Origin: a virus
Direction: 5' to 3' (one strand)
IMG/VR virus record: IMGVR_UViG_3300009503_000020
Coordinates: 56,718 to 120,717 of that record
DNA length: 64,000 nt
The notes beneath the pieces are model-generated. The model was not told where the DNA came from. It worked only from the letters and a program-made list of their open reading frames with translations, and did not search any database. How positions within the stretch are numbered: the stretch's first letter is position 1; each line of letters begins with the position of its first letter. Shown here piece by piece: positions 3,079-24,272 of the stretch. Position numbers and translations under genes: made by a program.

Positions 3079-3269
3079 TGTTGTCTAGAATTAAACATGC
3101 AATTGATATTAAGGACTGGACTAAGGAAGAGATAGCAAATAAACTGCAAGAGATTGTTCTAAAAGAACAAGGTCTAACATGGATAAGAGTAGAACCGCTT
3201 CTCATTGAGTATGAAACTGTCCTAGATCAACCTCTAAAGTTTAATCCAAGTTTGAGGCATTCAAAATGA
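3078..3269 (+). CDS. Hypothetical protein
   Basis: 63-aa ORF overlapping both neighbours at stop/start. Confidence 0.5.
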   Translation: MLSRIKHAIDIKDWTKEEIANKLQEIVLKEQGLTWIRVEPLLIEYETVLDQPLKFNPSLRHSK

Positions 3270-3964
3270 AAGAAGCTATTGTTCTTGCTGGTGGTAAAGG
3301 CTTAAGACTTAAAGGACAGATAGATGTACCTAAGCCTTTCTTGATAGTGCATCCAGAAACTGGAGAGACACTTTTAGAAGCACAGTTGAAGTGGTTAACT
3401 GCATATGACTTTGAACATGTCATTGTAGCTATTTCAAGAGAGAACTTCAAGTTCATGAGAGTAAACTATGCTAAACTCTTGAATATACCTTGGTTGGATA
3501 CTTCTATAGAAGAAGAACAACTGGGTACAGGAGGAGGACTCAAGAAAGCTTTAGACTTAGTTGAAGAGCCTGATTTCTATTGTATGAATTTAGATGATGT
3601 GTGTTTCTTTGACCCCACTGAGTTGTTTAATGCACAGAAAGGATTAAATGCTATCTTAATCCAACAAGCTAAACTACCATTTGGAGCAGTGCAGGTAGGG
3701 GAAGATATGAAGGTAATAGACTTCATAGAGAAACCTCTTATTGATAAGTTTGTATCTTGTGGTCACTATGCTTTCAATAGAAAACAGATAGAACCTTATT
3801 TGCCAGATGAGGGAGACTTGGAAATGACTCTCCTCAAAGCCTTAGCGAAGAATAATCTCCTATATGCACATATCTTGAAAGGAAAGTGGATAACAATTAA
3901 TACATATAAAGAGCTACTTGAAGCAAGAGGGATTATGAATGAGTCAAGAGAAGAGCAAGACTGA
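3266..3964 (+). CDS. Sugar-phosphate nucleotidyltransferase (NTP_transferase family)
   Basis: AIVLAGGKGLRL, LGTGGGL, NLDD and FIEKP motifs. Confidence 0.9.
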   Translation: MKEAIVLAGGKGLRLKGQIDVPKPFLIVHPETGETLLEAQLKWLTAYDFEHVIVAISRENFKFMRVNYAKLLNIPWLDTSIEEEQLGTGGGLKKALDLVEEPDFYCMNLDDVCFFDPTELFNAQKGLNAILIQQAKLPFGAVQVGEDMKVIDFIEKPLIDKFVSCGHYAFNRKQIEPYLPDEGDLEMTLLKALAKNNLLYAHILKGKWITINTYKELLEARGIMNESREEQD

Positions 3965-7802: not shown

Positions 7803-7846
7803 ATAGCCCAGACAAAGAAATAAAATAAAATGGAGGAATAGGAAAG

Positions 7847-8965: not shown

Positions 8966-8984
8966 CACTAAGGAGGTTTAAAAG

Positions 8985-9944: not shown

Positions 9945-9946
9945 AA

Positions 9947-10111: not shown

Positions 10112-10143
10112 CCACTCCCTTTCTTTTCTTTGAGGTGTTAAAT

Positions 10144-11038: not shown

Positions 11039-13703
11039 AGGTGTCTGGACTGCAATTAAGTATAAAGATGAAGTAGTAGATCCTAGTCTTTCTGAGACAG
11101 ATCCTAAGAAGTATAGACCTACAATCTATCTATGGGTTAGAGACACAGACTTAAAGAGACACAGGTTAGCTATCAAAGGATTCAAGCCATACTTCTATAC
11201 TATTCCTGCAGTTAAGTCTGATGCAAACTATATCTTTCAGATGCCAGAGATAGAGAAGTATGAGCTAGTAGAGTTTGGAAATAGAAAGCTATACAGGATC
11301 TACACATACATACCTGGTTTTGTACCTAAGATAAAGAGAACTATACAAGCTCAGTTTGCTCAAGCAGCAGTGAGAGAAGCAGATGTGCTCTTTGAACTTA
11401 GATTTTTAATAGACATGGGGATAAGAGGAGCAATTGACTGGTATGATGAAAGCAATCCAGTACCATTAGAAGAGGATTTGAATATTCCTCTAAGGAAAAT
11501 ATACATAGACACAGAAGTATGGTCTAAAAGACAAGTTAAGCCAGGAAGGATGAGAGCTAATGAATTTATTAAATGCTTAACTGCTTATGACTCTTATGAG
11601 AAGATATATTATACTTGGTATCTCAACGAATATGATTTGAAAGTACAAGAGACAGACTCTTGGAAGATAATCTGGTGTAGAACAGTAGAAGAGATGATGA
11701 AGGGATTTCTTAACTATGTCAAAGAGAGAGATCCTGATGTAATTACTGGATATAATGTAGACTTTGACCTATTGAATATAAGACAGGAAGCACTCAGAAG
11801 AGGATTACACACAGAGTTCAATTACTTGTCTGCTTTATCCGATTTGGGTTACTCTGTGGGAAAGGTAGTAACTAAGAAACACAGAATACGTGGAGTGGAC
11901 TGGTCTAGGGAAGGACTGTTGCTAGATGGTAGAGAAGTGATAGACATTCTAGACTGTATAAGAATGGTAGCAAGAACACAATTGAGGAGCTATACTCTTG
12001 ACTATGTGGTTGAAGTTTTCTTAGGAAAGGAAGAAAAGAAGGTAACCTATCAAGGAAAGCCTATAGCTCCTAATATAGTCAAAGTGTGGGAAGAAGCACC
12101 ACAAGTAGTTCTTGAATATAATAAACATGATGTGGAACTAGTAGTGAAACTAGATGGGAAGAATGACTTGATAGGCTTCTTAGACCAGTTGAGGAAGACT
12201 GTAGGTGTAAGGTTAGAAGATGCTTTCTCTACTCAGAGGATGATAGATACAGAAGCATTGAGAAGAAGGACATTTCCTCTTCCCTCTAAGTTCTCTAACA
12301 AGAAAGATGAGAAACAAAGCTACAAAGGTGCTATTGTAGTTAATCCAGTGATTGGTCTACACAAATGGGTAATCTGCCTAGACTACAAGTCTCTATACCC
12401 ATCTATCATTAGAACATTCAATATAGACACTGACACCTATGTGGTTGATTCCAAGTTTATTCCTAAGAAAGCTGAAGTATACAAGTTTAGCAATCTTGAA
12501 AACACTAAGTCGTGGATCTTCCTCAAGAAGCCTAGAGGTTTGTTCCCAGAGATGCTTGATGACTTCACTGCTTTGAGAGATAGTTTAAGAAAGCAGATAG
12601 AAATAGAGAAAGATCCTGAAAAGAAGAAGTTGCTAGATATCAAACAAGAAGTAATCAAAGTACTTTCAAATGCAGTGTATGGAGCTTTTGGATACAGGTC
12701 TAGGAAGCATAATTTAGAAGTAGCAGAAGCAATTACTGCATTTGGACAGAGGATGATTAGACTAGCAGCAGATATAGCTACTGAATTAGGAATGCAAGTA
12801 ATCTATGGTGATACAGATAGTATCTTTGTATGTACAGGAAAGAACAACTATGGAGAAGCATACAATGAAGGGATTAGACTACAAGATGAAATCATGAGAA
12901 GGATACCTAAGTTCACTTATCAGTTTAATGTAGATGAGAAGAACATCTTTGAGATTAAGCTAGAGAAGATATACAGTAAGTTCTTTATGGCAAAAGGAGC
13001 TACAGGAAAAGCTGCTAAGAAGAGATACTGTGGACAAATAATCCTTAAAGATGGGAAGACAAAGTTAGATGTGAAAGGATTTGATATCAAGAGAAGTGAT
13101 ACTTCAGAGTTTGCTAGTACACTTCAACAGAAGTTAATTGAGACAGTACTAACAGAGAAATCTAAAGAGGAACTTATTGAGGAGATAGCTAATGAGTTAA
13201 ACACCATTGACAAACTCCCGTTTGAAAAGATAGCTGTACCTTCAGCAATCTCTAAACCACTGAGAGGAGGATACAAGAAGAATCCTATACAGAAGAGAGC
13301 AGCTGAGAATGCTAACAAATATTTGGGAACTCACTATGAGTATGGTTCCAAGCCTCTTAGGTTATACATACAAGTTCCTAGTCTAGAAGAAGTGTATCCT
13401 AGAAGTCACAAGAAAACAGAGGTTGAGAGAAAAGAACTGGAGAAGGAGTTAAAGAATCTAAATGTGATAGCTTTTGATTCTTCAATTACCCTACCAGAGT
13501 GGATTAGAGTAGACTATCCCAGAATGCTAAAGCTGACTGTGAAACCTAAGATAGAGAAATTCCTAGAATCACTAGATATAACATGGGAAGAAGTTAAACA
13601 GAACTTGAAACCAGAATTGCAAGAAAAAGAAAAGAGAAAGAAGAAGAGAGAAGAACCAAAGACTACTCTTGACCTCTTCTTTGGAGGAAAGGAAAGTGCT
13701 TAG
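11022..13703 (+). CDS. polB: Family B DNA polymerase
   Basis: Exo motifs DTE, GYNVDFD and YNKHD; pol motifs DYKSLYPS, KVLSNAVYG and YGDTDS; C-terminal PIP-like KTTLDLFF. Confidence 0.97.
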   Translation: MKRNTKGVWTAIKYKDEVVDPSLSETDPKKYRPTIYLWVRDTDLKRHRLAIKGFKPYFYTIPAVKSDANYIFQMPEIEKYELVEFGNRKLYRIYTYIPGFVPKIKRTIQAQFAQAAVREADVLFELRFLIDMGIRGAIDWYDESNPVPLEEDLNIPLRKIYIDTEVWSKRQVKPGRMRANEFIKCLTAYDSYEKIYYTWYLNEYDLKVQETDSWKIIWCRTVEEMMKGFLNYVKERDPDVITGYNVDFDLLNIRQEALRRGLHTEFNYLSALSDLGYSVGKVVTKKHRIRGVDWSREGLLLDGREVIDILDCIRMVARTQLRSYTLDYVVEVFLGKEEKKVTYQGKPIAPNIVKVWEEAPQVVLEYNKHDVELVVKLDGKNDLIGFLDQLRKTVGVRLEDAFSTQRMIDTEALRRRTFPLPSKFSNKKDEKQSYKGAIVVNPVIGLHKWVICLDYKSLYPSIIRTFNIDTDTYVVDSKFIPKKAEVYKFSNLENTKSWIFLKKPRGLFPEMLDDFTALRDSLRKQIEIEKDPEKKKLLDIKQEVIKVLSNAVYGAFGYRSRKHNLEVAEAITAFGQRMIRLAADIATELGMQVIYGDTDSIFVCTGKNNYGEAYNEGIRLQDEIMRRIPKFTYQFNVDEKNIFEIKLEKIYSKFFMAKGATGKAAKKRYCGQIILKDGKTKLDVKGFDIKRSDTSEFASTLQQKLIETVLTEKSKEELIEEIANELNTIDKLPFEKIAVPSAISKPLRGGYKKNPIQKRAAENANKYLGTHYEYGSKPLRLYIQVPSLEEVYPRSHKKTEVERKELEKELKNLNVIAFDSSITLPEWIRVDYPRMLKLTVKPKIEKFLESLDITWEEVKQNLKPELQEKEKRKKKREEPKTTLDLFFGGKESA

Positions 13704-14142
13704 TTTTCCTTGTAGAGCATTTAGAGAGAACAGAGTTGTTTTCTCTAGAGAAGAATTAATAATGAGACTTAATGAAGCTAATGAGGCAGGGAAGAGTTGT
13801 GAGGTAGGGTTCTATGCATTCTCTACTTGGATAAACTTAGAACCAGTCAAAGAGAGTGTAGTGCTAGACAAAGTCATCTATACAGGAAAGCAAGAAACTT
13901 TAGAGAAGCTAGCAGAGAGAAAGCTAAGAGAAGGAAAAGAGTCTGTGCTTATATGGGATGGAGAGAGATACCTATTATTTGTAAGAGAAGAAGTAGATTC
14001 AATAGAAGGACTAGCAAAGAAGAAAGAGCCAGGAGCAGATGTAATAACTAATATAGAGGGCAAATTCACGTTCCCAGGCTTTAGGAATCTTAAAAGTGGT
14101 CAAATGAGCAAGATAATCAAGAAGTGGAGATTCAATGACTAA
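13696..14142 (+). CDS. Degenerate AEP primase-like protein
   Basis: FPCRAF...VVFSREEL...VGFYAF...LDKVIY...FTFPGFRNLKSG follows the archaeal-virus AEP layout, but the DxD and GxH motifs are absent. Confidence 0.4.
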   Translation: MLSFPCRAFRENRVVFSREELIMRLNEANEAGKSCEVGFYAFSTWINLEPVKESVVLDKVIYTGKQETLEKLAERKLREGKESVLIWDGERYLLFVREEVDSIEGLAKKKEPGADVITNIEGKFTFPGFRNLKSGQMSKIIKKWRFND

Positions 14143-15178
14143 AGTCTGTTGGATATCTGATTTTCCTCTCAGAGGCAGTTCTTTTGGTAATGTAACTTAT
14201 GAATTGCTTACAAGGATGCCTAAGGATTACTACTTTGAAGTGCTTAGTCTAGGATATGAAGGTATGCCTCTTAAACTAACAGATAACATAAGAATATTTG
14301 AATTGAAGAAGGCCTATCAGTTAAGGTATTACTACTCTAAGTTTAAACCAGATACAACTGTAGTATTTCATTCATTCTGGTTACTTAACTCAATTGCAAA
14401 TGAAATGGAAGCAATGACAGGTAAGAAGATCCTATACATACCAGTAGAGGGAGAAGAGGTTCCTTTTGAATATAGAAAACACTTCTTCTATTTTGACACT
14501 ATAGCAACACCTTCTGAATACTCCAGGAAAGTTTTAAAGAAATCAGGAATAAATGCAAGTGTAGTTCCTCATGGAGTAGATACTGCATTCTTCACACCTA
14601 AACCTAAAGTATGGCATGAGTTTAGATTTGGATATCTAGGACTAAATGACATTAGGAAACAGGTACCAAGAGTAATGGAAGCATATGCCAGACTTGGACA
14701 AGGGACTCTTGTAATTGCAGCAGAGAAAGAAGGACATTATGACTTGCCTAACCTAGCTAAGCAATACAATATATCTCCTATATTTGTAGAAGCTAAGTTG
14801 AATGGTCTAACTCTCAATAGAGAAGCAGTTAGAGACTTCTTGCAATCTCTAGATGTATACATTTCACCTGCATCAGAATCATTTGGCTTACCTGCATTAG
14901 AAGCACAAGCTTGTGGCATCCCAGTTATAGCTCTTGAACATGGAGCATCTAAAGAAGTCTTAGGCAATGGAGCAGTGTACTGTGGAGTAGCTGATCTCTT
15001 AGAGACAAGTATAGGAAAGATAGGTCTGATATCTGTCTCTGATCTATATAGGAAGATGAGATTCCTTATTCAAGTAAAAGAAGCTTATGAGAAGACAGCA
15101 AGTAAAGCTCTAGCTAATGCTCAGAACTGGACTTGGGAAAATGCTGTAAAGAAACTAACAGAGGTATTAGAGTCATGA
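14135..15178 (+). CDS. Glycosyltransferase family 4 (GT-B)
   Basis: VVPHGVD, RKQ, ESFGLPALEAQACGIPVI. Confidence 0.92.
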   Translation: MTKVCWISDFPLRGSSFGNVTYELLTRMPKDYYFEVLSLGYEGMPLKLTDNIRIFELKKAYQLRYYYSKFKPDTTVVFHSFWLLNSIANEMEAMTGKKILYIPVEGEEVPFEYRKHFFYFDTIATPSEYSRKVLKKSGINASVVPHGVDTAFFTPKPKVWHEFRFGYLGLNDIRKQVPRVMEAYARLGQGTLVIAAEKEGHYDLPNLAKQYNISPIFVEAKLNGLTLNREAVRDFLQSLDVYISPASESFGLPALEAQACGIPVIALEHGASKEVLGNGAVYCGVADLLETSIGKIGLISVSDLYRKMRFLIQVKEAYEKTASKALANAQNWTWENAVKKLTEVLES

Positions 15179-15549
15179 ACTTAGAAGGTATTAATTTGAA
15201 AGGAGTAAAACATCTAGATGCTAGGTTAAGAAAAAAGAAGAACAGTCTCAACTTAGAAGAAATGTGGCAAAGAATCCTTGGCTCAGGTTACTATCAGCCA
15301 TTCTGTCCTCTTTGTGGTGAGCCATTGAAATTAACTGATTGCACAATAGAGTATGAACTTGCTCCGGGCTTAGGAAAGAAACATTTCTTGTGGCATTTAA
15401 GGACAGCTACACCTACAATAATAGTTAAACTTAGATGTCTTCACTGTAATGTAGAGATAAAAGGACAAGGTTATGGACTTTCTTATGACAGTGAAGGAAT
15501 AGCCTTTGAATCTCTGCGTATGACTTCTATAGATAAAAAGGAGGAATGA
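15175..15549 (+). CDS. Zinc-finger protein
   Basis: CPLCG...CLHC; ATGA overlap. Confidence 0.55.
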   Translation: MNLEGINLKGVKHLDARLRKKKNSLNLEEMWQRILGSGYYQPFCPLCGEPLKLTDCTIEYELAPGLGKKHFLWHLRTATPTIIVKLRCLHCNVEIKGQGYGLSYDSEGIAFESLRMTSIDKKEE

Positions 15550-15827
15550 AATTGGAAGAAAAGAAAGAAGACAAAGTAAGATATGTGCAAGGTTGGCGTT
15601 GTGAGTTCTGTGGAGAAATATATTCTACTAAAGAAGAAGCAGAGACATGTTGGGAGAGACATGTACAGTTTGAGATACAGCCACTGTTCTCATTAAATGA
15701 AGAGTTCCCTACTGAAGTCCTAGTAAAGAAAATAGAGGGTAACTACTACACTGAAATAGCAACATATGAACTAGCTAAGAAAGAGAAAGTAAGCATCGAA
15801 AGGAAAGTGAGAAAAGAAGATGAGTAA
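15546..15827 (+). CDS. Small C2H2-like zinc-finger protein
   Basis: CEFCG...CWERH. Confidence 0.55.
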   Translation: MKLEEKKEDKVRYVQGWRCEFCGEIYSTKEEAETCWERHVQFEIQPLFSLNEEFPTEVLVKKIEGNYYTEIATYELAKKEKVSIERKVRKEDE

Positions 15828-17106
15828 ACCAACAGAAGCTAAGGTAATAGAACAAACTATAGCTCAAGATATAAAAGAGAATCGTACTTGGAGAGACATG
15901 AGAATACTATGGCATTCAGTAGCACCTTATATCAATTCTGGCTATGGCACTGTTACTCGTGAGTTTATGACAAGACTTTTGAATAAAGGCTTTGTAGGCT
16001 TCATATCAGCATATTATGGAATACAACCAGGAGGAATGTTAAATTGGCATGGACTATATGTCCTACCAGTTCAAAAGACTTCTTCAGATCAACTAGGATT
16101 TGAATCTGCTATTGAACACTACAAAAGATTCAAGTGTGACCTGGGAGTTTTTCATGCTGACTTTTGGGTATCATATCAGTTTGCTAAGAAGATACCTTAT
16201 ACTCTCTGTTACTCCCCTATAGATCATGAACAGTATCCTGATAAATGGTTAGAAATCTTAAGGACTTACAAGTGGGTAGCTGTTCCTTCACGACATGCTG
16301 AGAAGGAACTAAAGAAATCAGGGATAGAAGCAACCTTTGTTCCTCATGGTGTAGATATAAAAGAATATCATCCACTAGATAAAAAGACAAGCAGGCAAGC
16401 ATTCTCACTAAATCCAGAAGACTTCATAATTGGAATAGTTGCAGCTAACAACGATGAGGAGACCAGAAAAGCTTGGGATGCTAATTTCTTGGCAGTTAAG
16501 TACTTCCTTGATAACAATCCAGATGCTAAGAAAGATGTAAAAGTAGTGATACATACAGACCCTACTAATGAAAGAGGGAGAAACCTCTATGAACTAGTTG
16601 ATCAAGTAGGAATAGGAGAACAAGTTATTTGGAATGACCGCTACTTTGCTTCTCTTTTGACATTTCCTTCTTCAGTAATGTGTAAGCTATACAACTGTTT
16701 TGATGTGTTTCTCTTGTTATCTAGGAGAGAAGGATTCTGCATTCCTGCACTTGAAGCACAAGCATGTGGAGTACCTTGCATACTTAATGACTTCTCTGCA
16801 CTCTCTGAAAGAAATGACTATGGTAGAGTAGGGTGGCTAGTAAAACCGAGTGCACTAGTCTATTCTCCACTGAATGCAATTACTTCTATTCCTGATCCTT
16901 ACGGAGGGGCGAAGGCTCTTGAAGAAGCATACAATAATGAATCTAAGAGAAAGTTGTATGCAAAGAGATCACTTGAATATGCTAGACAACAGACATGGGA
17001 TATAGCTATTGACAAGTACATGATGCCTCTTCTAGAGAGAATAGGAGAAGAAATTCCTTCTCTAACAAGTAGAAAGGAGGCTAGAAAGATTGCAGGAAAC
17101 ACCTAG
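15820..17106 (+). CDS. Glycosyltransferase family 4 (GT-B)
   Basis: RILWHSVAP, SGYG, FVPHGVD, RK, EGFCIPALEAQACG. Confidence 0.92.
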   Translation: MSKPTEAKVIEQTIAQDIKENRTWRDMRILWHSVAPYINSGYGTVTREFMTRLLNKGFVGFISAYYGIQPGGMLNWHGLYVLPVQKTSSDQLGFESAIEHYKRFKCDLGVFHADFWVSYQFAKKIPYTLCYSPIDHEQYPDKWLEILRTYKWVAVPSRHAEKELKKSGIEATFVPHGVDIKEYHPLDKKTSRQAFSLNPEDFIIGIVAANNDEETRKAWDANFLAVKYFLDNNPDAKKDVKVVIHTDPTNERGRNLYELVDQVGIGEQVIWNDRYFASLLTFPSSVMCKLYNCFDVFLLLSRREGFCIPALEAQACGVPCILNDFSALSERNDYGRVGWLVKPSALVYSPLNAITSIPDPYGGAKALEEAYNNESKRKLYAKRSLEYARQQTWDIAIDKYMMPLLERIGEEIPSLTSRKEARKIAGNT

Positions 17107-17911
17107 AGTAATGATATGTCTACTAGTTAAGAATGATGCCAAGCATCTTCCTCAATTTCTGAATGCAATGAAGAACTTAGACTATCCAAAAGACAAACTT
17201 AGATGGATATGGATATATGGTAAGTCTGTTGATGACACCCTGGACATCATTCTTGAGTTTCATAAGAAAGAACCTTATAAGTATGAAGTCTATGAAGAAC
17301 CTGTCTTTGAGAGACTACTACCAAATGCCCTTTATGTTGCTAGACTCTGTAATGAATTTAAGAAGATGTATCAAGGAGAAGAGTATGTTCTCTTTGCTGA
17401 CTCTGATATAGTAGAAATGCCTCCTGAGACACTAAAAGAACTGATAAGAGTAGATAAGGACATAGTAGCTCCTTATGTGTACAGAAGAACTTCAGATGGA
17501 GAGGAGTTCTTCTATGACACCTATGTCTTTCGTTGGCATGGTTGGAAGTTTGAACATGTAGAATGTAAAGGAGTTGTATATGGCTATGAAAAACCAGTAT
17601 TTGCTAATGAAAAGCAACCTGTTGAATTAGATTCAGTAGGAACATTTCTCTTGATCAAAGGAGAAGTGTTCAAGAAAGTTGATTGGGATAATCCAGCTCC
17701 ACACTTACAATTCTGTAAGAATGCTAGGAAAGCAGGATATAAAGTGTGGGCTCTCCCATATCTTAAAATATACCATGCAGATGTGACTCAAGAAGAGTCA
17801 CCACACTACTCATTAGAATGGTATGCACAACACGATATGATACCCTTTGAGGAACTATACAAGGTCGGATATGTGAAGAAAGGAGGAAAACTTGTTCTGG
17901 AGACGTGGTAG
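17090..17911 (+). CDS. GT-A fold glycosyltransferase (Anp1/GT2-like)
   Basis: CLLVKND...LDYPK, DSD (DxD) motif, ELDSVG, IYH. Confidence 0.8.
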   Translation: MQETPRVMICLLVKNDAKHLPQFLNAMKNLDYPKDKLRWIWIYGKSVDDTLDIILEFHKKEPYKYEVYEEPVFERLLPNALYVARLCNEFKKMYQGEEYVLFADSDIVEMPPETLKELIRVDKDIVAPYVYRRTSDGEEFFYDTYVFRWHGWKFEHVECKGVVYGYEKPVFANEKQPVELDSVGTFLLIKGEVFKKVDWDNPAPHLQFCKNARKAGYKVWALPYLKIYHADVTQEESPHYSLEWYAQHDMIPFEELYKVGYVKKGGKLVLETW

Positions 17912-17938
17912 TTTGGACAAGAGAAAGGAGGGAAAAAA

Positions 17939-18382
17939 ATGAGACCTAAGGAGCAGATCCTTCAGTTCTTACAAGAAAAAATACAAGATAGTAATTGCAG
18001 TTTGTTAGATGTAGGTGCAGGAGAAGATTTTGTTAGGAATGTATTTATTAACACAGTTAGTTTGGACATTAGAGGTAAACCAGATGTGAAAGCTGATGCT
18101 CACTTTCTTCCTTTTAAATCTAATAGTTTTGATTATGTCATAGGCATATCTGTAATAGAGCATTTAGAGAATCCTGCTATAGCAGTGAGAGAAATGCTAA
18201 GAACAGCAAGAATAGCCGTTATCCTTTGGACTGATTTTACACAACACGATATGGAAGCTGATCCTGAACATAAGTATTGCTGGACACCTAAAGTCTTCCA
18301 GCAGTTTCTTAACATGTTTGGTTATCAATCTAAAGCAGAAGTGTGGAGAGACTTTGCACTTGTTGGAATCATATGGAAGTGA
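17939..18382 (+). CDS. Class I SAM-dependent methyltransferase
   Basis: LLDVGAG motif I, ADAHFLPF, SFD, VIEHL. Confidence 0.88.
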   Translation: MRPKEQILQFLQEKIQDSNCSLLDVGAGEDFVRNVFINTVSLDIRGKPDVKADAHFLPFKSNSFDYVIGISVIEHLENPAIAVREMLRTARIAVILWTDFTQHDMEADPEHKYCWTPKVFQQFLNMFGYQSKAEVWRDFALVGIIWK

Positions 18383-18386
18383 GAAA

Positions 18387-19130
18387 ATGAAAACAGTAGT
18401 CTTGATAACTGGTGGAACGAAAGGAGTTGGAAAGTGGATAGCAGAGGATTTTGCTAAATCTTTATCAGAAGTTGTCTTAGTGCTGAACTATAAATCAGAC
18501 TATGGCACAGCACTCCAGACTGAGGAAGAATTAAGACAGATGAGTAATGCAGAAATAATGTTATACAAAGCAGACATAAGAAACGAAGATGAAGTAGAGA
18601 AGATGGTAGATGTAATTATAAAGACTTATGGAAAGATAGATGTGCTGATAAACAATGCTGGTGTAAACAAGGATGCTGTTACTTGGAAAATGGAGAAGAA
18701 AGATTGGGATGAAGTCATAAATACTAATCTCACAGGAGCATTCTTATGTACCAAACACGTATTGCCACACATGAGACAAGCTTGCTTTGGAAGGATAATC
18801 AATATCTCTTCTGTTGTTGGACAAATGGGAGTCTTTGGAACATGTGCTTATTCAGCAACAAAAGCAGGACTTATAGGATTTACTAAGACAGTAGCTAAAG
18901 AAGTAGCAAATAAGAATATAACGGTGAACTGCATTGCATTAGGATATGTTCAGACAGGAATGAGTATGAGAATAGATGAAGAGTTAAGGAAAGCTTATGA
19001 GAAGAATATTCCTTTAGGAAGATTTGCTACTAAAGATGAAGTTACTGGGATTGTGCTATTTCTATGTTCAAAGGAAGCTAGTTACATAACAGGACAAGTA
19101 ATCAATGTAAATGGCGGGTGTTATATGTGA
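18387..19130 (+). CDS. fabG: SDR oxidoreductase, FabG/acetoacetyl-CoA reductase-like
   Basis: TGGTKGVG, NNAG, YSATK catalytic YxxxK, ITVNCIALG. Confidence 0.88.
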   Translation: MKTVVLITGGTKGVGKWIAEDFAKSLSEVVLVLNYKSDYGTALQTEEELRQMSNAEIMLYKADIRNEDEVEKMVDVIIKTYGKIDVLINNAGVNKDAVTWKMEKKDWDEVINTNLTGAFLCTKHVLPHMRQACFGRIINISSVVGQMGVFGTCAYSATKAGLIGFTKTVAKEVANKNITVNCIALGYVQTGMSMRIDEELRKAYEKNIPLGRFATKDEVTGIVLFLCSKEASYITGQVINVNGGCYM

Positions 19131-19705
19131 TGAACAAACTAGGAATGAAATACTACACAGAAGATGAACTTAGAAAGATGGGCTTCAAGTCAGTAGGAAA
19201 AGATGTACGAGTAGGAACTAGGGCTATTATTCGAGACCCTTCCATAGTCTCAATTGGAAACCATGTAGCAATAGATGACTTTGTTGTTATTCTAACAACA
19301 GTTGATATAGGTAATTATGTACATATAACAAGATTCACAAGCATCTCTGGTTCTAGAGATAGTTACTGTAAAATAAGTGATTATGCTGGCATTTCTGAAA
19401 GATGCTCCTTAATATGTGGTACAGATGACTTCTCTGGAGAATATCTTGCTAACCCAACTATACCGATAAAGTATAGGAAAGTGACTAATGGTAGGATAAT
19501 ACTTGAGAAGTATGTACAACTAGGAGCCAATGTAACTGTACTTCCAAACGTGACTATAGGAGAAGGTACTGCAGTAGGGGCATGCTCTCTTGTAACTAAA
19601 AGTCTAGACCCATGGGGTATCTATATAGGAATCCCGGTCATAAGGAAAAAAGAAAGAAGTAGACAGATGGTTGAATTAGCTAAAGATTTGGAGGCAAGTA
19701 AATAA
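19130..19705 (+). CDS. Left-handed beta-helix sugar N-acyltransferase (VioB/AntD-like)
   Basis: YYTEDELRKMGFKSVG, IDDF, TDDFSG...PTIP, hexapeptide repeats, WGIYIGIP. Confidence 0.85.
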   Translation: MNKLGMKYYTEDELRKMGFKSVGKDVRVGTRAIIRDPSIVSIGNHVAIDDFVVILTTVDIGNYVHITRFTSISGSRDSYCKISDYAGISERCSLICGTDDFSGEYLANPTIPIKYRKVTNGRIILEKYVQLGANVTVLPNVTIGEGTAVGACSLVTKSLDPWGIYIGIPVIRKKERSRQMVELAKDLEASK

Positions 19706-19725
19706 GAAACTAGAAGGGATTAGAA

Positions 19726-20805
19726 ATGAAGAAACAAATACACTGGGCTGAACCTAGAATAGAGGAAGAAGAAATAGAAGCTGTCAAGGAAGCAGTTAAG
19801 TCTACTTGGATAGGAGGAAATGGACCTCTAGTTAGGCAATTTGAAAAAGAACTAAGTTCTCTTCTTGGAGTTAAGTATGCAATTGCAGTCAATAATGGTA
19901 CATCTGCTTTGCTATGTGCTATGCAAGCATTGAGAGAAGCTAAGTATCCAATGAGATTTCTAGTTCCTACACTAACCTTCTTTGCTACTGGAGCTACTGT
20001 ACATGAGATGAGTGAGAAAGGACTGTCTTATCTTATAGACTGTGATAGGAAGACATTCAATATACTAACAGACTTAAGCTTCTACAGAGGAGTACCAATA
20101 GTAGTTCCAGTTGATGTAGGTGGACTTCCTGTAGACTATGATGAACTAAGAAAGAATGAGAAGATAATGCTAGCTGACTCTGCTGAAGCATTAGGATCTA
20201 AATACAAAGGAGAATATGTAGGAAAGCAAGCAGACATTCACACATTCAGTTTCCACTCTGCTAAAGTAATAACTACTGGAGAAGGAGGAGCAATAACTAC
20301 TAATAACAAAGAACTTTATGAGATGATGAAGTCTATTGCTAATCAAGGATATGGAAAGAAAGAGTGGTATGAATATAGGCATGAAAGAATAGGTTTCAAT
20401 TATAGAATGCCTGAACTTCAAGCAGCACTAGGTCTAGTCCAGTTAAAGAAACTAGACAGGTTCGTTAGAGAACGAAATGAGAAGGCTAAGACATATAAAG
20501 ACATCCTTGGAGACTTAGTAGAGTATCAGCATGTGCCTAAATGGGCAACACACAACTACTTCTTGTTTATTATACTAGTTAAGAACAATGTGAAACTTTG
20601 TCAGGAACTTAAGAAAGAAGGAATAGAAACTAAGACGATGTGGATACCTCTTCACAAACAACCTCCATTTGACAGGAATGCACATCTTGAAAATGCAGAA
20701 GAGGTAGCTAACCATGGATTAACACTTCCTATACATAACAATCTGTCTGAAGAAGATGTGAAGGAAATAGCTCAAGTAGTAAGGAGACTGATCAAGAATG
20801 AGTGA
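19726..20805 (+). CDS. DegT/DnrJ/EryC1/StrS PLP-dependent sugar aminotransferase
   Basis: NNGTSAL, DSAEALG, FSFHSAKVITTGEGG (PLP Lys), GFNYRM. Confidence 0.93.
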   Translation: MKKQIHWAEPRIEEEEIEAVKEAVKSTWIGGNGPLVRQFEKELSSLLGVKYAIAVNNGTSALLCAMQALREAKYPMRFLVPTLTFFATGATVHEMSEKGLSYLIDCDRKTFNILTDLSFYRGVPIVVPVDVGGLPVDYDELRKNEKIMLADSAEALGSKYKGEYVGKQADIHTFSFHSAKVITTGEGGAITTNNKELYEMMKSIANQGYGKKEWYEYRHERIGFNYRMPELQAALGLVQLKKLDRFVRERNEKAKTYKDILGDLVEYQHVPKWATHNYFLFIILVKNNVKLCQELKKEGIETKTMWIPLHKQPPFDRNAHLENAEEVANHGLTLPIHNNLSEEDVKEIAQVVRRLIKNE

Positions 20806-21763
20806 TCTGAAAGGTAGTAATGTGCTAGTGACTGGTGGAGCAGGTTTCATAGGATCTTCATTAGTTAGACAACTAGAGAAGTTGAATTGTCATATTATAG
20901 TACTAGATAATCTTATTGCAGGAAGAAAAGAAAACTTAGAAGGAACAAAGGCTGAACTAATAGAAGGAGACATAAGAAACCAAGAACTGTTGACTTACAT
21001 CCTTAACAAGAATAGTATAGAATATGTATTTCACTTGGCTGCTGAACCTTACATACCTAAAGGATATCAGAACCCTAATGTTATGTTTGAAGTGAATACA
21101 CTAGGGACAATGAAAGTTCTTCTTGAAAGTAAGAAAGCGGGAGTAAAAAGAATTCTGCACTACTCCACTTCAGAGGTATATGGCACAGCAAAGTATCTTC
21201 CAATGGATGAAAATCATCCCTTGTTGCCTCATAGTATCTATGCTGTATCTAAGCTAGCAGCAGACAGGTCAGCTTTTATTCTCTGGAAGGAAAAGGGAGT
21301 TCCTGTTGTAATCTTAAGACAATTTAATTGCTTTGGCCCAAGAGAGTGTCAACCTTACATTATTCCAGAGATTATCTCTCAATTTATCCACAAAGGACCT
21401 ATCCTCACTCTAGGCAATATAGATGCAAGACGAGACTTTACTTTTGTAGATGATGCTTCTCTAGGTGCTGTTAAACTAATGCAAGTTCCTGATATTGAGG
21501 GAACAGTAGTAAACTTAGGAAGAGGACTAAACTGGTCTGTAAAGGAAATAGCACAGAACATTGCAGAAGTGCTTAGTACAACTAATTGGGGCATACAAAT
21601 AGATAGCAATAGGTTAAGACCTTATGATGTAGATGAGCTTCTCTGCAATAATTCCTTCTTTAATCAACTAACTGGTGGTCTAGAATTCACAGACTTCAAA
21701 GAAGGACTCAAGAAAACTATTGAATGGTACAGAAGCAATGGAGCAAGGTGGAGTTGGGAATAG
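20798..21763 (+). CDS. NAD-dependent NDP-sugar 4,6-dehydratase/epimerase
   Basis: VTGGAGFIG, HLAA, STSEVYG, YAVSK, RDFTFV. Confidence 0.92.
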   Translation: MSDLKGSNVLVTGGAGFIGSSLVRQLEKLNCHIIVLDNLIAGRKENLEGTKAELIEGDIRNQELLTYILNKNSIEYVFHLAAEPYIPKGYQNPNVMFEVNTLGTMKVLLESKKAGVKRILHYSTSEVYGTAKYLPMDENHPLLPHSIYAVSKLAADRSAFILWKEKGVPVVILRQFNCFGPRECQPYIIPEIISQFIHKGPILTLGNIDARRDFTFVDDASLGAVKLMQVPDIEGTVVNLGRGLNWSVKEIAQNIAEVLSTTNWGIQIDSNRLRPYDVDELLCNNSFFNQLTGGLEFTDFKEGLKKTIEWYRSNGARWSWE

Positions 21764-21830: not shown

Positions 21831-22355
21831 ATGAATAAGGACTATAGGTCCTACAAACTATCTGGTTTGTATTCTAAGAACACTAATTCTCTAGATTCTA
21901 CTCTAAATACAGGTAATAACTATAGGTCCTGTAGACTATCAGGTCTACCATTTCAAGATACTAGTTTCTTAAAGGTTAGTCTAAATCTTGTTACTCCTGT
22001 ACAATTCCATGGTTCTATCCTTCAAGTATTTAGCTACAAAAGAATTAAAGTAGAAAGCTTGGATGCATCTCTTATAAAGAGAGTGTATGAGCTACAAAAT
22101 GCAAAGGCAGTCACTGTTCTGGAGTGCCCCAACTTCTTTCTAATACAGTATCCTGGCAAGCCATTTGTGTTTATCAATAAAAAGGATGGCAAGTTGTATG
22201 TCCTGAATGAGGATGGATTTGAACAAGAGGAGAAGGAAAGTCAGGCATCCTTTGTAGTTAGAATGCTTCATAAATTCCAGTTGGTTGAAGACTTGCACTC
22301 CAAGAAGATTTCAAGAAAACACATAAATATAGAGCAGAGAACAGGTAAGAGGTGA
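21831..22355 (+). CDS. Hypothetical protein with a repeated N-terminal segment
   Basis: AGGAGG RBS upstream; YRSYKLSGL / YRSCRLSGL repeat. Confidence 0.55.
   Translation: MNKDYRSYKLSGLYSKNTNSLDSTLNTGNNYRSCRLSGLPFQDTSFLKVSLNLVTPVQFHGSILQVFSYKRIKVESLDASLIKRVYELQNAKAVTVLECPNFFLIQYPGKPFVFINKKDGKLYVLNEDGFEQEEKESQASFVVRMLHKFQLVEDLHSKKISRKHINIEQRTGKR
21838..21948. repeat. 78-nt-period direct repeat containing covarying hairpins
   Basis: ACTATAGGTCCT at 21841 and 21919, each followed by a 6-7 bp stem with a TATC(T/A)G loop. Confidence 0.7.
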
Positions 22356-22678
22356 TAAGCATGGATAAAGTGTTTGAAATTTTAAAGAAGCACTTCAGTG
22401 AACTTAGAAAATATCCTAATGTGCTGAATGCTAATGTAGGAGAAGAAATAACTAAAGGAAAGAGGACTGGAAGGAAAGCAATTGTTGTCTTTGTTTCTCA
22501 GAAGAAACCACTGTCAGCCTTACCTATAAATGCTAGACTTCCAGATGAAGTAGAAGGAGTTCCAGTTGATGTTGTTGAATGGAAAGCAGACTATAAGTTA
22601 GGAGACACTGCTCCTTCCCATTTAGACCCTGAAACACAGCATAGGATTTCAAGTGGTGTTAGACATGGGAAACAGTGA
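22352..22678 (+). CDS. Stand-alone protease pro-domain-like protein
   Basis: NVLNANVG...RTGRKAIVVFVSQKKP...LPDEVEGVPVDVVE resembles the N-terminal domain of Nal1-like trypsin proteases. Confidence 0.5.
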   Translation: MISMDKVFEILKKHFSELRKYPNVLNANVGEEITKGKRTGRKAIVVFVSQKKPLSALPINARLPDEVEGVPVDVVEWKADYKLGDTAPSHLDPETQHRISSGVRHGKQ

Positions 22679-23408
22679 TTGGAGACCGTTCTGTTCTCCT
22701 ATTCGTGATCAGGGTTCATGTGGTTCCTGCACTGCCTTTGGAACAATTGGGGCCTGGGAGACTTGCATAAGAATAGCAGAAAACAATCCAAATGATCCAA
22801 TAGACTTGAGTGAGAGAGACTTGTTTGTTTGTTCAGGAGGATATTGTGCACTTGGCAATACAATGGAGAATGTACTCAACAAAGCCTTGAGTGGAGTGGC
22901 TTTAGAAAGTTGTTGCCCTTATGATGGACTAGATCATCTCTGTGGAGAAGGTCGTTGCCCTGACTGGACTAAGACAGGGAAGAGACTAAGGTCCTACAGA
23001 GAAGTAACTGAAAGAGAAGAAATGAAACAGTTGTTAAACAAAGAAGCTCTTGTAGGAGTAATGACAGTCCACCAATCATTTATTAACTATAAAGAAGGAG
23101 TTTATCACAGTCTTGGAGACACAGATCCTATATTAGGTGGACATGCTATTGCAATTGTTGGCTATAGTGATGATTTGCAAGCTTGGTTGGTCAGAAACTC
23201 CTGGGGCACTTCTTGGGGTATGGAAGGTTATGCTTGGGTAGCTTATGGTGATAGTGAGATAGACCAAATAATGTATGAGATTATACCTGATGGACCTATA
23301 AACCCAGTTCCAAGTCCATGCAAGCTAGGAAATGCTATTGCTAAATTCTTGAACTTCTTTGCTTGGTTGTTTCATAGAGAGGGAAGATTTTTCTATCTAA
23401 ACCCATAA
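22665..23408 (+). CDS. Papain-family (C1A) cysteine protease
   Basis: DWR...DQGSCGSCTAF (catalytic Cys), GGHAIAIVGY (His), RNSWGTSWG (Asn). Confidence 0.93.
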   Translation: MGNSDWRPFCSPIRDQGSCGSCTAFGTIGAWETCIRIAENNPNDPIDLSERDLFVCSGGYCALGNTMENVLNKALSGVALESCCPYDGLDHLCGEGRCPDWTKTGKRLRSYREVTEREEMKQLLNKEALVGVMTVHQSFINYKEGVYHSLGDTDPILGGHAIAIVGYSDDLQAWLVRNSWGTSWGMEGYAWVAYGDSEIDQIMYEIIPDGPINPVPSPCKLGNAIAKFLNFFAWLFHREGRFFYLNP

Positions 23409-24203: not shown

Positions 24204-24272
24204 TCAGAAGTGAAGTTCATATTAGGGGGAAAAAAAAATTGTGGGCAATCTGACTTCTGAGTAAGCGCTTAC
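24204..24272 (-). terminator. Probable terminator after the tail-tip gene
   Basis: On the - strand a T9 tract (24230-24238) lies about 30 nt after the stop. It is flanked by an 8-bp inverted repeat (24204/24253); perfect palindrome GTAAGCGCTTAC at 24261-24272. Confidence 0.5.

What the first reader, a model, noticed from the sequence alone, without database searches (positions are those of the whole stretch)
14135..21763. Virus-encoded pathway for an N-acylated, possibly methylated 4-amino-4,6-dideoxysugar plus transferases
Seen: contiguous GT4, GT4, GT-A, SAM methyltransferase, FabG-like SDR, VioB/AntD-like acyltransferase, DegT aminotransferase and 4,6-dehydratase genes, plus a nucleotidyltransferase at 3266. 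Known: dehydratase, aminotransferase and LbH acyltransferase make viosamine/perosamine-type sugars, as in Bacillus anthrose and mimivirus fibril glycans; acetoacetyl-CoA reductases make 3-hydroxybutyryl-CoA. Inference: a modest-sized archaeal tailed virus autonomously makes an N-(3-hydroxybutyryl)-type sugar to glycosylate virions, remodel the host S-layer (superinfection exclusion) or modify DNA.
Basis: partly seen in the sequence, partly recalled or inferred. Interest (0 to 1): 0.85.

Follow-up and report, generated by a model that had tools for sequence, protein, structure and literature searches.

The report
Archaeal virus sugar-coat gene island
A complete 121-kb tailed virus with archaeal-type replication genes carries a real operon for making an acylated amino-deoxy sugar and attaching it to something inside the infected cell, and its relatives keep the operon's core but swap the decorating genes; what gets decorated is still unknown.

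Summary
Window 14135-21763 holds ten co-directional, overlapping genes:
- two GT4 glycosyltransferases, two small conserved ORFs and an Anp1-like GT-A;
- a small SAM methyltransferase and a FabG-type reductase;
- an AntD-family N-acyltransferase (E 9e-51 to the B. cereus AntD structure);
- a DegT aminotransferase and an extended-SDR enzyme with a dehydratase-type STSE/YxxxK site.

The block is viral, not mis-assembled host DNA. Its composition matches the rest of the genome. An independent 97% identical assembly joins PolB to the island. At least five related virus contigs (RadA-XPF-PolB) keep the core GT4 / GT-A / aminotransferase / dehydratase.

The relatives vary the tailoring genes. Some have AntD+FabG; others have GNAT, ATP-grasp and pyruvyl transferase.

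An N-(3-hydroxyacyl) 4-amino-4,6-dideoxyhexose is the best reading. However, the aminotransferase and dehydratase are not anthrose/RmlB-type. They form virus-specific clades nearest LegB/GMD and Per/LegC/PseC. The C2 group and the nucleotide (GDP favoured) are therefore unresolved.

No gene encodes a membrane protein, a flippase, NeuB or a hydroxymethyl-base enzyme. The target (virion, host glycan or DNA) is unproven.

This scan has already noted similar sugar islands in other archaeal viruses and phages.

The parts
3266..3964 (+). Sugar-1-phosphate nucleotidyltransferase, probably a guanylyltransferase. It is conserved across the virus lineage but not adjacent to the island. Membership in the pathway is inferred.
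   Evidence: Pfam NTP_transferase 6e-16. LAGGKGLRL motif. Best PDB and NCBIfam matches are GDP-mannose pyrophosphorylases and HddC. About 25 homologues at 59-74% identity lie on virus-like contigs, one on the same 61-kb contig as the L008 island.
14135..15178 (+). GT4 (GT-B, retaining-type) glycosyltransferase a, soluble.
   Evidence: Glycos_transf_1 48 bits, above cut-off. E248-x7-E256 motif. No hydrophobic segment. 37% identical homologue in L111.
15175..15549 (+). Small Zn-ribbon-like ORF of unknown role, conserved within the island.
   Evidence: Weak zinc-ribbon Pfam hits below cut-off. 28% identical homologue at the same place in L007/L008.
15546..15827 (+). Small CxxC ORF of unknown role, conserved within the island.
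   Evidence: 59% identical in L008 and 39% in L111, at the same position.
15820..17106 (+). GT4 glycosyltransferase b, soluble. It hosts a LAGLIDADG intein in a 97% identical strain.
   Evidence: Glyco_trans_1_4 46 bits. E304-x7-E312 motif. 68% identical in L008. The L011 copy is 778 aa with an in-frame 350-aa LAGLIDADG insert.
17111..17911 (+). GT-A fold glycosyltransferase (Anp1/GT62- and GT25-like), soluble, present in every relative examined.
   Evidence: Pfam Anp1 65 bits, above cut-off. D104-S-D106 motif. AlphaFold model (pLDDT 67) matches PcManGT, ColGalT1 and Mnn9 with TM up to 0.56. 43-69% identical in L008, L110 and L111.
17939..18382 (+). Small class-I SAM methyltransferase; sugar O- or N-methylation is inferred. 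Found only in this virus and its 96-98% identical strain L011.
   Evidence: Methyltransf_11 34.9 bits, above cut-off. Motif I LLDVGAG. No tblastn hit in relatives or bacterial AntD loci. Covered by L011.
18387..19130 (+). FabG-type 3-oxoacyl reductase. Its inferred product is a (3R)-3-hydroxyacyl thioester, the donor for the next enzyme.
   Evidence: adh_short_C2 2e-60. NCBIfam NF009466 FabG 254.9 bits, above the 222 cut-off. Best PDB match is a (3R)-hydroxyacyl-CoA dehydrogenase, 4e-64. TGxxxGxG, NNAG and YxxxK motifs. Its stop overlaps the LbH start (TAATG).
19130..19705 (+). AntD-family left-handed beta-helix N-acyltransferase.
   Evidence: E 9e-51 to PDB 3VBI/3VBN over residues 11-190, with over half the aligned residues identical by eye. 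3VBN is AntD of B. cereus. 64-69% identical in the related virus contigs L008 and L009.
19726..20805 (+). DegT/DnrJ/EryC1 PLP-dependent sugar aminotransferase, in a virus-specific clade.
   Evidence: Pfam 293.7 bits. SFHSAK lysine motif. Below every NCBIfam equivalog cut-off, with PseC 257 and LegC-family 242 bits the best. Tree: viral clade 100*, unresolved against Per, LegC, PseC and ArnB.
20798..21763 (+). Extended-SDR NDP-hexose 4,6-dehydratase-type enzyme, overlapping the aminotransferase gene by 8 nt.
   Evidence: GDP_Man_Dehyd/Epimerase 1e-53. GGAGFIGS, STSEVYG and YAVSK motifs; the Glu aligns with the catalytic Glu of dTDP-glucose dehydratases and is absent from archaeal epimerases. 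Tree: viral clade 97*, sister to an archaeal-named cellular clade 99*, apart from RmlB, ArnA and GalE.
21831..22355 (+). Conserved ORF of unknown function just downstream. Membership in the island is uncertain.
   Evidence: No Pfam match. 44% identical ORF at the end of the island in L007.

Best explanation
The block is a genuine viral operon, inherited within a lineage of archaeal tailed viruses, that equips the infected cell with a cytoplasmic glycosylation kit.

Proposed steps:
1. A nucleotide-activated hexose is oxidised and dehydrated at C4/C6 by the extended-SDR enzyme. GDP-linked is favoured. It is possibly supplied by the conserved viral nucleotidyltransferase at 3266.
2. The DegT enzyme transaminates the product at C4.
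3. The FabG-type reductase turns a host 3-oxoacyl thioester, most simply acetoacetyl-CoA, into a 3-hydroxyacyl thioester.
4. The AntD-family acyltransferase puts that acyl group on the C4 amine. This gives a 4-(3-hydroxyacyl)amido-4,6-dideoxyhexose.
5. The small methyltransferase may add a methyl group.
6. Three soluble glycosyltransferases (two GT4, one GT-A) assemble this sugar with host sugars on an acceptor reachable in the cytoplasm, most likely virion proteins.

Shown: gene identities, intact motifs, viral ownership, lineage conservation and diversification.

Inferred: substrate order, acyl chain, methylation site, nucleotide, C2 substituent and acceptor.
For: - Family assignments and intact catalytic motifs for all enzymes.
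- AntD homology at E 9e-51.
- The dehydratase has the T-x-E site of 4,6-dehydratases, unlike epimerases, and falls outside the ArnA, RmlB and GalE clades.
- The FabG and AntD genes are translationally coupled. A FabG-like SDR recurs beside AntD-like genes in 7 of 80 bacterial loci, including a bona fide LegB/LegC cluster with KAS III.
- In P. syringae, an SDR (vioR), an acyltransferase (vioB) and a methyltransferase (vioM) are genetically required for N-(3-hydroxybutanoyl)-2-O-methyl-viosamine.
- No protein in the island has a transmembrane segment. There is no flippase, polymerase or oligosaccharyltransferase.
- Viral ownership: native composition, an independent 97% identical assembly across the PolB-island junction, and a core conserved at 43-74% identity in related virus contigs beside RadA, XPF and PolB.
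- Inteins sit in the dehydratase and GT4 genes of relatives. This argues that these genes matter to the virus.
Against: - No biochemical or expression data exist.
- The aminotransferase and dehydratase fall below every curated equivalog cut-off. Their clades are unresolved relative to characterised enzymes.
- The nearest cellular dehydratase homologues sit with GT2 and GT-C (PMT_2) genes in Arn-like contexts. This allows other chemistry.
- AntD's natural donor is 3-hydroxy-3-methylbutyryl-CoA (from memory of Kubiak and Holden 2012, which could not be read here). No ACP or KAS III is encoded, so the acyl chain is a guess.
- The methyltransferase is short and unique to this strain pair.
- The nucleotidyltransferase is 10 kb away, inside the replication module.
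- Nothing identifies the acceptor.
Confidence: 0.55

Rival explanations
1. Same sugar chemistry, but the target is the host envelope. The soluble viral GT4 and GT-A enzymes act on the cytoplasmic face on host dolichol-phosphate-linked glycan precursors. The host flippase and AglB then display an altered N-glycan on S-layer and surface proteins. This would give superinfection exclusion or altered receptor display.
For: - GT2/GT4 enzymes without membrane spans commonly act on lipid-linked intermediates.
- The nearest cellular homologues of the dehydratase lie in envelope-glycan contexts with GT2, PMT_2 (GT-C) and Wzx-like genes.
- The island lies on the early/replication arm, not in the structural operon.
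- Phage sugar clusters have been read this way since P-SSM2.
Against: - No lipid-carrier, flippase or oligosaccharyltransferase gene is in the virus.
- No integrase was seen among the ORFs scanned, so surface conversion has less obvious benefit.
- The serotype-like swapping of tailoring genes between close relatives fits a virion-borne antigen at least as well.
Confidence: 0.25
2. The SDR enzyme is a UDP-glucuronate decarboxylase (UXS/ArnA-like), and the pathway makes an N-acylated 4-amino-4-deoxy-pentose (Ara4N-like) rather than a 6-deoxyhexose.
For: - The STSEVYG motif is shared with UXS and ArnA (from general knowledge of these families, not tested here).
- Human UXS scores 105 bits against 120 for RmlB in the PDB search.
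- Cellular homologues are flanked by DegT, an ArnC-like GT2 and an ArnT-like PMT_2.
Against: - NCBIfam scores are 51-67 bits for ArnA and UDP-4-keto-pentose synthase, against 213 for LegB and 158 for RmlB.
- ArnA branches far from the viral clade.
- ArnB is only 27% identical to the viral aminotransferase.
- AntD-family partners known here work on 6-deoxyhexoses.
Confidence: 0.08
3. The glycan is put on viral DNA as a base hypermodification that protects against host nucleases.
For: - In this virus the island directly follows PolB. In relatives it is interleaved with RadA, dCMP deaminase and PolB.
- A nucleoside 2-deoxyribosyltransferase-like gene and a weak DUF1599 (nucleotide-modification-associated) match exist elsewhere in the genome.
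- Phage GT-A and GT-B enzymes are known to build complex glycans on 5hmC.
Against: - No thymidylate-synthase-like hydroxymethylase, ThyX or C5-cytosine methyltransferase matched in the complete genome, and those searches had positive controls.
- The TET/JBP search also found nothing, but its control rang nowhere, so it is uninformative.
- The known DNA-glycan systems depend on these enzymes.
- The GT-A model resembles protein- and lipid-directed GTs at low TM only.
Confidence: 0.07
4. The block is host chromosomal DNA joined to the virus by mis-assembly.
For: The enzymes belong to cellular families. The contig comes from a metagenome.
Against: - Tetranucleotide distance is at the 46th percentile of genome windows, and GC is 0.371 against 0.385.
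- The contig closes with 123-bp terminal repeats.
- An independent assembly from another sample is colinear from PolB through the island at 96-98% identity.
- Homologous islands lie beside PolB in at least five other virus contigs.
- The genes overlap PolB-side ORFs in one operon.
Confidence: 0.01

Closest known systems
Pseudomonas syringae pv. tabaci viosamine island (vioA, vioB, vioR, vioM, vioT, vioS, acp), which makes dTDP-N-(3-hydroxybutanoyl)-2-O-methyl-viosamine for flagellin (PMC3927599)
   Same: The logic is the same: a 4-aminotransferase, an N-acyltransferase, a FabG-type 3-oxoacyl reductase, a methyltransferase and a dedicated transferase. The glycan is put directly on a protein in the cytoplasm.
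   Different: The virus has no KAS III and no ACP. Its acyltransferase is AntD-type. Its aminotransferase is not WecE-type (26% identical; no VioA reference was compared). The nucleotide is probably not dTDP. The owner is an archaeal virus.
Bacillus anthrose pathway (antABCD plus rmlAB); AntD structures 3VBI-3VBP
   Same: The N-acyltransferase is a clear AntD homologue (E 9e-51). The product class is a 4-(3-hydroxyacyl)amido-4,6-dideoxyhexose, possibly methylated.
   Different: There is no AntA enoyl-CoA hydratase; FabG stands in its place. The aminotransferase is 27% identical to the aminotransferase beside the B. paranthracis AntD homologue (taken as AntC) and lies in another clade. The dehydratase is outside the RmlB clade.
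Legionaminic-acid early steps (LegB, LegC, LegH), for example the Helicobacter pametensis cluster found here with LegB, LegC, FabG-like SDRs, KAS III, an AntD-like acyltransferase and NeuB
   Same: LegB and LegC/PseC are the best-scoring curated families for the viral dehydratase and aminotransferase. The same AntD-like plus FabG pairing occurs in a true Leg cluster. The viral nucleotidyltransferase is of the GDP type.
   Different: Scores are far below the family cut-offs (213 against 475; 242 against 420). There is no NeuB/LegI anywhere in the genome and no LegG or LegF among the ORFs scanned, so the pathway must stop at the hexose.
Autonomous glycosylation of giant viruses (Mimivirus R141/L136/L142 viosamine; Megavirinae clade-specific sugar clusters) and sugar clusters of tailed phages (P-SSM2; glycosylated actinobacteriophage virions)
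   Same: These are virus-encoded nucleotide-sugar enzymes plus soluble GTs acting without host secretory machinery. Sugar gene sets vary by clade.
   Different: The host domain is Archaea and the virion is a head-tail particle of 121 kb. The acylation uses an AntD/FabG module rather than N-acetylation. The aminotransferase and dehydratase clades are virus-specific with archaeal-named sisters.

Membership tests
AntD-type LbH sugar N-acyltransferase | Left-handed beta-helix hexapeptide repeats and full-length similarity to AntD (PDB 3VBI/3VBN). | tested here: met
   Hexapep 56.6 bits. phmmer E 9e-51 over residues 11-190 against 20-198 of AntD. 3VBN is named as AntD in PMC6031040.
AntD-type LbH sugar N-acyltransferase | Transfers a 3-hydroxyacyl group from CoA to the C4 amine of an NDP-4-amino-4,6-dideoxyhexose. 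| not testable with these tools
   This needs an enzyme assay. Context supports it: the gene lies next to DegT and FabG genes.
Bacillus anthrose operon (antABCD) | AntA enoyl-CoA hydratase and an AntC-type aminotransferase accompany AntD. | tested here: not met
   No hydratase is in the island. The viral aminotransferase is 27% identical to the aminotransferase beside the B. paranthracis AntD homologue (taken as AntC) and lies in a different clade.
NDP-hexose 4,6-dehydratase (extended SDR) | GxxGxxG Rossmann motif, YxxxK, and a Thr-x-Glu acid/base site. | tested here: met
   GGAGFIGS, YAVSK and STSEVYG are present. The Glu aligns with the STDEVYG site of 6BI4 and 1R66. The archaeal epimerases 6PMH and 6DNT lack it.
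dTDP-glucose 4,6-dehydratase RmlB (TIGR01181) | Score above the curated equivalog cut-off and placement in the RmlB clade. | tested here: not met
   157.6 bits against a cut-off of 365.1. The RmlB clade (100*) excludes the viral clade.
LegB GDP-GlcNAc 4,6-dehydratase (TIGR04180) and LegC aminotransferase (TIGR04181) | Scores above the curated cut-offs, and co-occurrence with NeuB/LegI, LegG and LegF. | tested here: not met
   213 against 475 bits, and 242 against 420 bits. No NeuB is in the complete genome. These are the best-scoring families, but grouping with LegB+GMD is loose (support 84).
DegT/DnrJ/EryC1 sugar aminotransferase (PF01041) | Pfam score above cut-off and a PLP-binding lysine. 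| tested here: met
   293.7 bits against 19.8. SFHSAK motif.
FabG 3-oxoacyl reductase | Classical SDR with TGxxxGxG, NNAG and S/YxxxK, and a score above a curated FabG model. | tested here: met
   NF009466 scores 254.9 bits against a cut-off of 222. The equivalog TIGR01830 just misses (275.6 against 297.75). Motifs.
GT4 glycosyltransferases | Glycos_transf_1 domain and an E-x7-E motif. | tested here: met
   Both proteins score above cut-off. E248-x7-E256 and E304-x7-E312.
GT-A glycosyltransferase (Anp1/GT62-like) | GT-A Rossmann-like fold with a DxD motif. | tested here: met
   Anp1 65.3 bits against 28.8. D104-S-D106. The model matches GT-A structures with probability 1.0 but TM up to 0.56 only.
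Phage DNA glycan hypermodification systems | A hydroxymethyl-pyrimidine source (ThyA-like hydroxymethylase, or C5-MTase plus TET/5mYOX) encoded with the GTs. | tested here: not met
   No PF00303, PF02511 or PF00145 match in the complete genome, with positive controls. No PF12851 match either, but its control rang nowhere, so that search is uninformative.
Lipid-carrier (Wzx/Wzy or AglB) glycan export pathway | Membrane-embedded initiating transferase, flippase, polymerase or oligosaccharyltransferase. | tested here: not met
   No hydrophobic 19-residue window of 1.6 or more in any island protein. No such Pfam family in the island.

The most novel reading that the evidence does not exclude
The island, which in every relative is interleaved with replication and nucleotide-metabolism genes (RadA, dCMP deaminase, PolB), decorates the viral DNA with an N-acyl amino sugar. 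It would do so through a base-activation chemistry that none of the known marker enzymes (ThyA-like, TET, C5-MTase) reports.
Probability: 0.07. Interest if true: 0.85.

Novelty: new variant of a known kind. Interest (0 to 1): 0.55.

Why it matters
Virus-encoded sugar synthesis with soluble transferases is established for giant viruses and is seen in some phages. In the archaeal-virus papers I searched, only single glycosyltransferases are discussed.

Here a whole lineage of archaeal head-tail viruses keeps a core: nucleotidyltransferase, dehydratase, aminotransferase, GT-A and GT4. Around that core it swaps the tailoring enzymes, much as bacteria swap O-antigen genes.

If the glycan sits on the virion, it would be a strain-specific coat. 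Such a coat is relevant to host recognition, particle stability and escape from host surface-binding defences in uncultured archaea.

The finding also offers a compact, ACP-free enzyme set for making 3-hydroxyacylated amino sugars.

Tried and rejected
- Nucleotide and capsid-protein searches of GenBank phages found nothing related.
- Viral-contig scans with the dehydratase alone found nothing. With the LbH alone they found only two distant loci.
- A genome-contig scan with the dehydratase alignment was swamped by a generic Rossmann pattern. It returned only matches of 37% identity or less, so it says nothing about the donor lineage.
- The related contigs L005, L008 and L009 are not held as genomes. 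Their capsid and PolB could not be searched directly.
No read-pair or RNA evidence was obtained, and read laying was not used.
- The Kubiak and Holden AntD paper is not held. AntD substrate-contact residues could not be compared.
- PDB codes 8VR2, 8VR3 and 8VR5 could not be traced to a paper.
- The aminotransferase tree did not resolve which characterised clade is nearest.
- The 79-aa ORF before the LbH gene in L007 was checked as a possible ACP. It is a Cys/His-rich protein instead.
- An HD-domain gene that follows the nucleotidyltransferase in relatives is absent from the window.
- PDB matches for the two GT4 enzymes are too weak (E about 1e-5) to suggest an acceptor.
- No tRNA genes were found.

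Full report
**What is there.** The window is the right-hand 64 kb of a complete virus record of 120,717 bp that closes with 123-bp direct terminal repeats.

It is a head-tail virus. It has an HK97-type capsid gene at 35354-36247, a tail protein at 24269-29008, and a long minus-strand structural arm. The plus-strand arm carries an archaeal-style replication set:
- a DHH/RecJ-like gene with an intein, RadA, an XPF/ERCC4 nuclease with HhH, and family-B polymerase;
- in the left half, a full-length eukaryote-type topoisomerase IB. Its closest cellular relatives found are a Nitrososphaerales MAG (39%) and two Asgard MAGs (38-39%).

'Archaeal tailed virus' is therefore supported. The host lineage is not resolved.

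**The observation.** From the end of polB to 21763 there are ten same-strand genes that overlap by 1-8 nt or are 4-27 nt apart once likely ATG starts are used.

Two small conserved ORFs lie between the GT4 genes.

Catalytic signatures are intact:
- E-x7-E in both GT4 enzymes and DSD in the GT-A;
- LLDVGAG in the methyltransferase;
- TGxxxGxG, NNAG and YxxxK in FabG;
- SFHSAK in the aminotransferase;
- GGAGFIGS, STSEVYG and YAVSK in the last enzyme.

None of the proteins has a hydrophobic segment. The nucleotidyltransferase at 3266-3964 is real and carries the LAGGKGLRL signature.

**Is it viral DNA?** Yes.
- The island's tetranucleotide profile sits at the 46th percentile of equal-sized windows of the genome. 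Its GC is 0.371 against 0.385 for the genome.
- An IMG/VR fragment from another sample (L011) is colinear with window 11847-18997 at 96-98% identity, so it independently joins polB to the island. Its only difference is an in-frame 350-aa LAGLIDADG intein inside the second GT4.
- Related contigs carry homologous islands in the same neighbourhood. L007/L008 (21 and 61 kb) share GT4b, GT-A, SDR, LbH, aminotransferase and dehydratase at 65-74% identity.
- L009 (129 kb), L110 (78 kb), L111 (78 kb) and a 64-kb JGI contig share the GT4, GT-A, aminotransferase and dehydratase core at 43-65% beside RadA, XPF or PolB.
- In L009 the dehydratase gene itself carries a Hint intein.

**A conserved core and a variable tail.** Across these relatives the GT4 genes, the Anp1-like GT-A, the aminotransferase and the dehydratase are constant. 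What follows differs.
- This virus and L008 have FabG plus the AntD-like acyltransferase. In L008 the SDR is fused to a GDSL/SGNH-like domain and an ATP-grasp gene is added.
- The others have a GNAT acetyltransferase, ATP-grasp, FtsJ-like methyltransferase, cytidylyltransferase-like and polysaccharide pyruvyl transferase genes. L009 has both a GNAT and the AntD-like enzyme.
- The methyltransferase at 17939 is seen only here and in the near-identical L011.
- The nucleotidyltransferase has about 25 homologues at 59-74% identity on long virus-like contigs, then nothing above 44%. One homologue lies on the very contig that carries the L008 island.
- In L221 and L222 the nucleotidyltransferase occupies a fixed place in the same Topo IB ... 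ClpP ... RadA-XPF-PolB synteny.

The nucleotidyltransferase is thus co-conserved with the core, though never adjacent to it in the loci seen.

**What the enzymes most likely do.** The acyltransferase is the firmest call. It matches AntD of B. cereus over its whole length (E 9e-51).

The AntD family is overwhelmingly bacterial. In the top 80 species-representative hits, the best identity is 50% and only one archaeon appears. The viral copies are 64-69% identical to each other.

In bacteria an aminotransferase sits beside the AntD-like gene in 63 of 80 loci, and a FabG-like SDR in 7 of 80. One of those is a bona fide legionaminic-acid cluster in Helicobacter pametensis. It has LegB (504 bits), LegC (510 bits), two SDRs, an acyl-CoA ligase, KAS III, the AntD-like enzyme, an FkbM methyltransferase and NeuB.

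So the AntD/FabG pair is a portable 'put a 3-hydroxyacyl group on a C4 amine' module. It is not tied to viosamine.

The FabG enzyme passes a curated FabG model (254.9 against 222 bits). Its best solved relative is a (3R)-hydroxyacyl-CoA dehydrogenase. Its stop codon overlaps the acyltransferase start.

The P. syringae viosamine island shows genetically that such a reductase (vioR) and a methyltransferase (vioM) are needed to make N-(3-hydroxybutanoyl)-2-O-methyl-viosamine on flagellin.

The virus has no KAS III or ACP. A CoA-bound C4 donor from host acetoacetyl-CoA is the simplest inference, and it is only an inference.

The last enzyme has the Thr-x-Glu site that aligns with STDEVYG of dTDP-glucose 4,6-dehydratases. 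The two archaeal epimerases that top the PDB list lack the Glu. Dehydratase-type chemistry is therefore likely.

The enzyme scores best to LegB (213 bits, cut-off 475), then RmlB (158, cut-off 365). GMD, ArnA and UXS models score far lower.

In a tree with reference enzymes taken from E. coli, Bacillus, Helicobacter and Fervidobacterium genomes:
- the viral sequences form one clade (97*);
- that clade is sister to a cellular clade whose named members are Diapherotrites, Thermoplasmata and Methanobacteriota archaea (99*);
- the pair lies apart from RmlB (100*), ArnA and GalE;
- it groups only loosely (84) with LegB and GMD, both GDP-sugar dehydratases.

The aminotransferase likewise forms a virus-only clade (100*) that is unresolved against the reference clades. 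Identities to references are:

| Reference | Identity to the viral aminotransferase |
|---|---|
| E. coli O157 Per | 33% |
| PseC | 31% |
| LegC | 29% |
| ArnB | 27% |
| Aminotransferase beside the B. paranthracis AntD homologue (taken as AntC) | 27% |
| WecE | 26% |

The nucleotidyltransferase resembles GDP-mannose and GDP-heptose pyrophosphorylases, not RmlA.

Taken together, a 4-amino-4,6-dideoxyhexose remains the best reading, and a GDP-linked substrate is favoured. Whether C2 bears an equatorial OH (viosamine-like), an axial OH (perosamine-like) or an acetamido group (bacillosamine-like) cannot be told from sequence.

There is no NeuB in the genome, so nothing goes on to a nonulosonic acid.

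A pentose (Ara4N-like) route is a minor rival. It is suggested by the Arn-like neighbourhoods of the nearest cellular homologues and weakened by the scores and the tree.

**What is decorated.** This is not shown. The absence of any membrane component means the three transferases must work on something reachable in the cytoplasm.
- Virion proteins. Head-tail particles assemble in the cytoplasm. In L009 the island abuts tail-fibre-like genes (Collar, fn3), and in L111 it abuts a convergent block of unannotated genes. The strain-level swapping of tailoring genes resembles a surface antigen.
- Host dolichol-linked glycan precursors. This fits the early-arm location and the envelope-glycan context of the cellular homologues.
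- DNA. The known DNA routes need a hydroxymethyl-pyrimidine source. The complete genome has no match to thymidylate-synthase-like, ThyX or C5-methyltransferase families, all with positive controls. The TET/JBP search also found nothing, but its control rang nowhere, so it is uninformative.

The GT-A model (pLDDT 67) resembles an archaeal mannosyltransferase, collagen galactosyltransferase and Mnn9, at TM of 0.56 or less. This confirms the fold but not the acceptor.

I put about 0.45 on virion proteins, 0.25-0.3 on host glycan and below 0.1 on DNA.

**Comparison with what is known.** Virus-encoded nucleotide-sugar pathways with soluble transferases are established for giant viruses. Sugar clusters have been noted in tailed phages since P-SSM2. 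Virion glycosylation by phage GTs is documented for actinobacteriophages (cited).

The papers on archaeal viruses that I could search mention single glycosyltransferases or a general enrichment of glycan genes. They do not describe a dehydratase-aminotransferase-acyltransferase pathway.

Earlier notes of this scan describe comparable variable sugar islands in other archaeal viruses and phages on unrelated DNA. I did not test those.

I therefore class this as a new variant of a known kind. The biochemistry is ordinary. The combination (AntD/FabG acylation on a virus-specific LegB/Per-like core), the owner (an archaeal head-tail virus lineage) and the serotype-like diversification are the new parts.

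**Limits.** All functional statements rest on homology and context. Several 'viral' dehydratase homologues in the tree come from short contigs whose viral nature I did not check; the long ones I did. Trees were built with the quick method, and long reference branches make deep nodes unreliable. No read-level or expression data could be obtained.

Noticed in passing
window about 16461 (inside GT4b, 15820-17106) versus L011:4615-5665: Intein presence/absence polymorphism. A 97% identical strain carries an in-frame 350-aa LAGLIDADG intein in this glycosyltransferase, and the window's copy has none. Relatives also have a Hint intein in the dehydratase (L009) and a LAGLIDADG-bearing 694-aa GT4 (L007/L008).
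   Followed up: partly
L007/L008:8230-9633: In the closest relative, the FabG-type reductase is fused to an N-terminal GDSL/SGNH hydrolase-like domain (467 aa). This suggests acyl-thioester handling is built into one protein.
   Followed up: no
L082 (Helicobacter pametensis) 1275-11307: A bona fide LegB/LegC/NeuB legionaminic-acid cluster contains an AntD-like acyltransferase, two FabG-like SDRs, an acyl-CoA ligase, KAS III and an FkbM methyltransferase. This implies a 3-hydroxyacylated, possibly methylated, legionaminic acid.
   Followed up: partly
L066 (Methanomassiliicoccus MAG) 1432-3168: The only archaeal genome among the top 80 AntD-like hits pairs the acyltransferase with an aminotransferase that is sister to E. 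coli O157 perosamine synthase (100*). This hints at N-acyl-perosamine in an archaeon.
   Followed up: no
window 1885-3964; L221 and L222: The nucleotidyltransferase and the preceding 397-aa ORF of unknown function (74% identical in L221) form a conserved pair in the lineage. Relatives follow them with an HD-domain gene that this virus lacks.
   Followed up: partly
genome 50338-51891 (L004:10338-11891): A full-length eukaryote-type topoisomerase IB (N-terminal, core and C-terminal domains) is encoded by the virus and by relative L221. The nearest cellular matches are Nitrososphaerales and Asgard MAGs at 38-39%.
   Followed up: partly
genome 55052-56201 (L004:15052-16201): A nucleoside 2-deoxyribosyltransferase-like gene is followed directly by a ClpP protease. 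The pair is conserved in L221 and L222, and its role is unknown.
   Followed up: no
genome 26597-28209, minus strand (L003:6597-8209): A phosphatidylserine-decarboxylase-like gene lies next to a weak DDAH/amidinotransferase-fold gene. These are possible auxiliary metabolic genes on the opposite strand to their neighbours.
   Followed up: no
window 4348-4761: A weak, sub-threshold match to DUF1599 (nucleotide-modification-associated domain 1), about 400 nt downstream of the nucleotidyltransferase.
   Followed up: no
window 22352-23408: A papain-family (C1) cysteine protease with a preceding small ORF lies at the end of the plus-strand arm, just after the sugar island. Earlier notes read it as a lysis cassette.
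   Followed up: no
window 29446-31656, minus strand: A 736-aa protein in the tail module has a very long hydrophobic stretch: 182 windows with mean hydropathy of 1.6 or more, between residues 110 and 642. It has no Pfam match. It may be a tape-measure or membrane-active protein.
   Followed up: no
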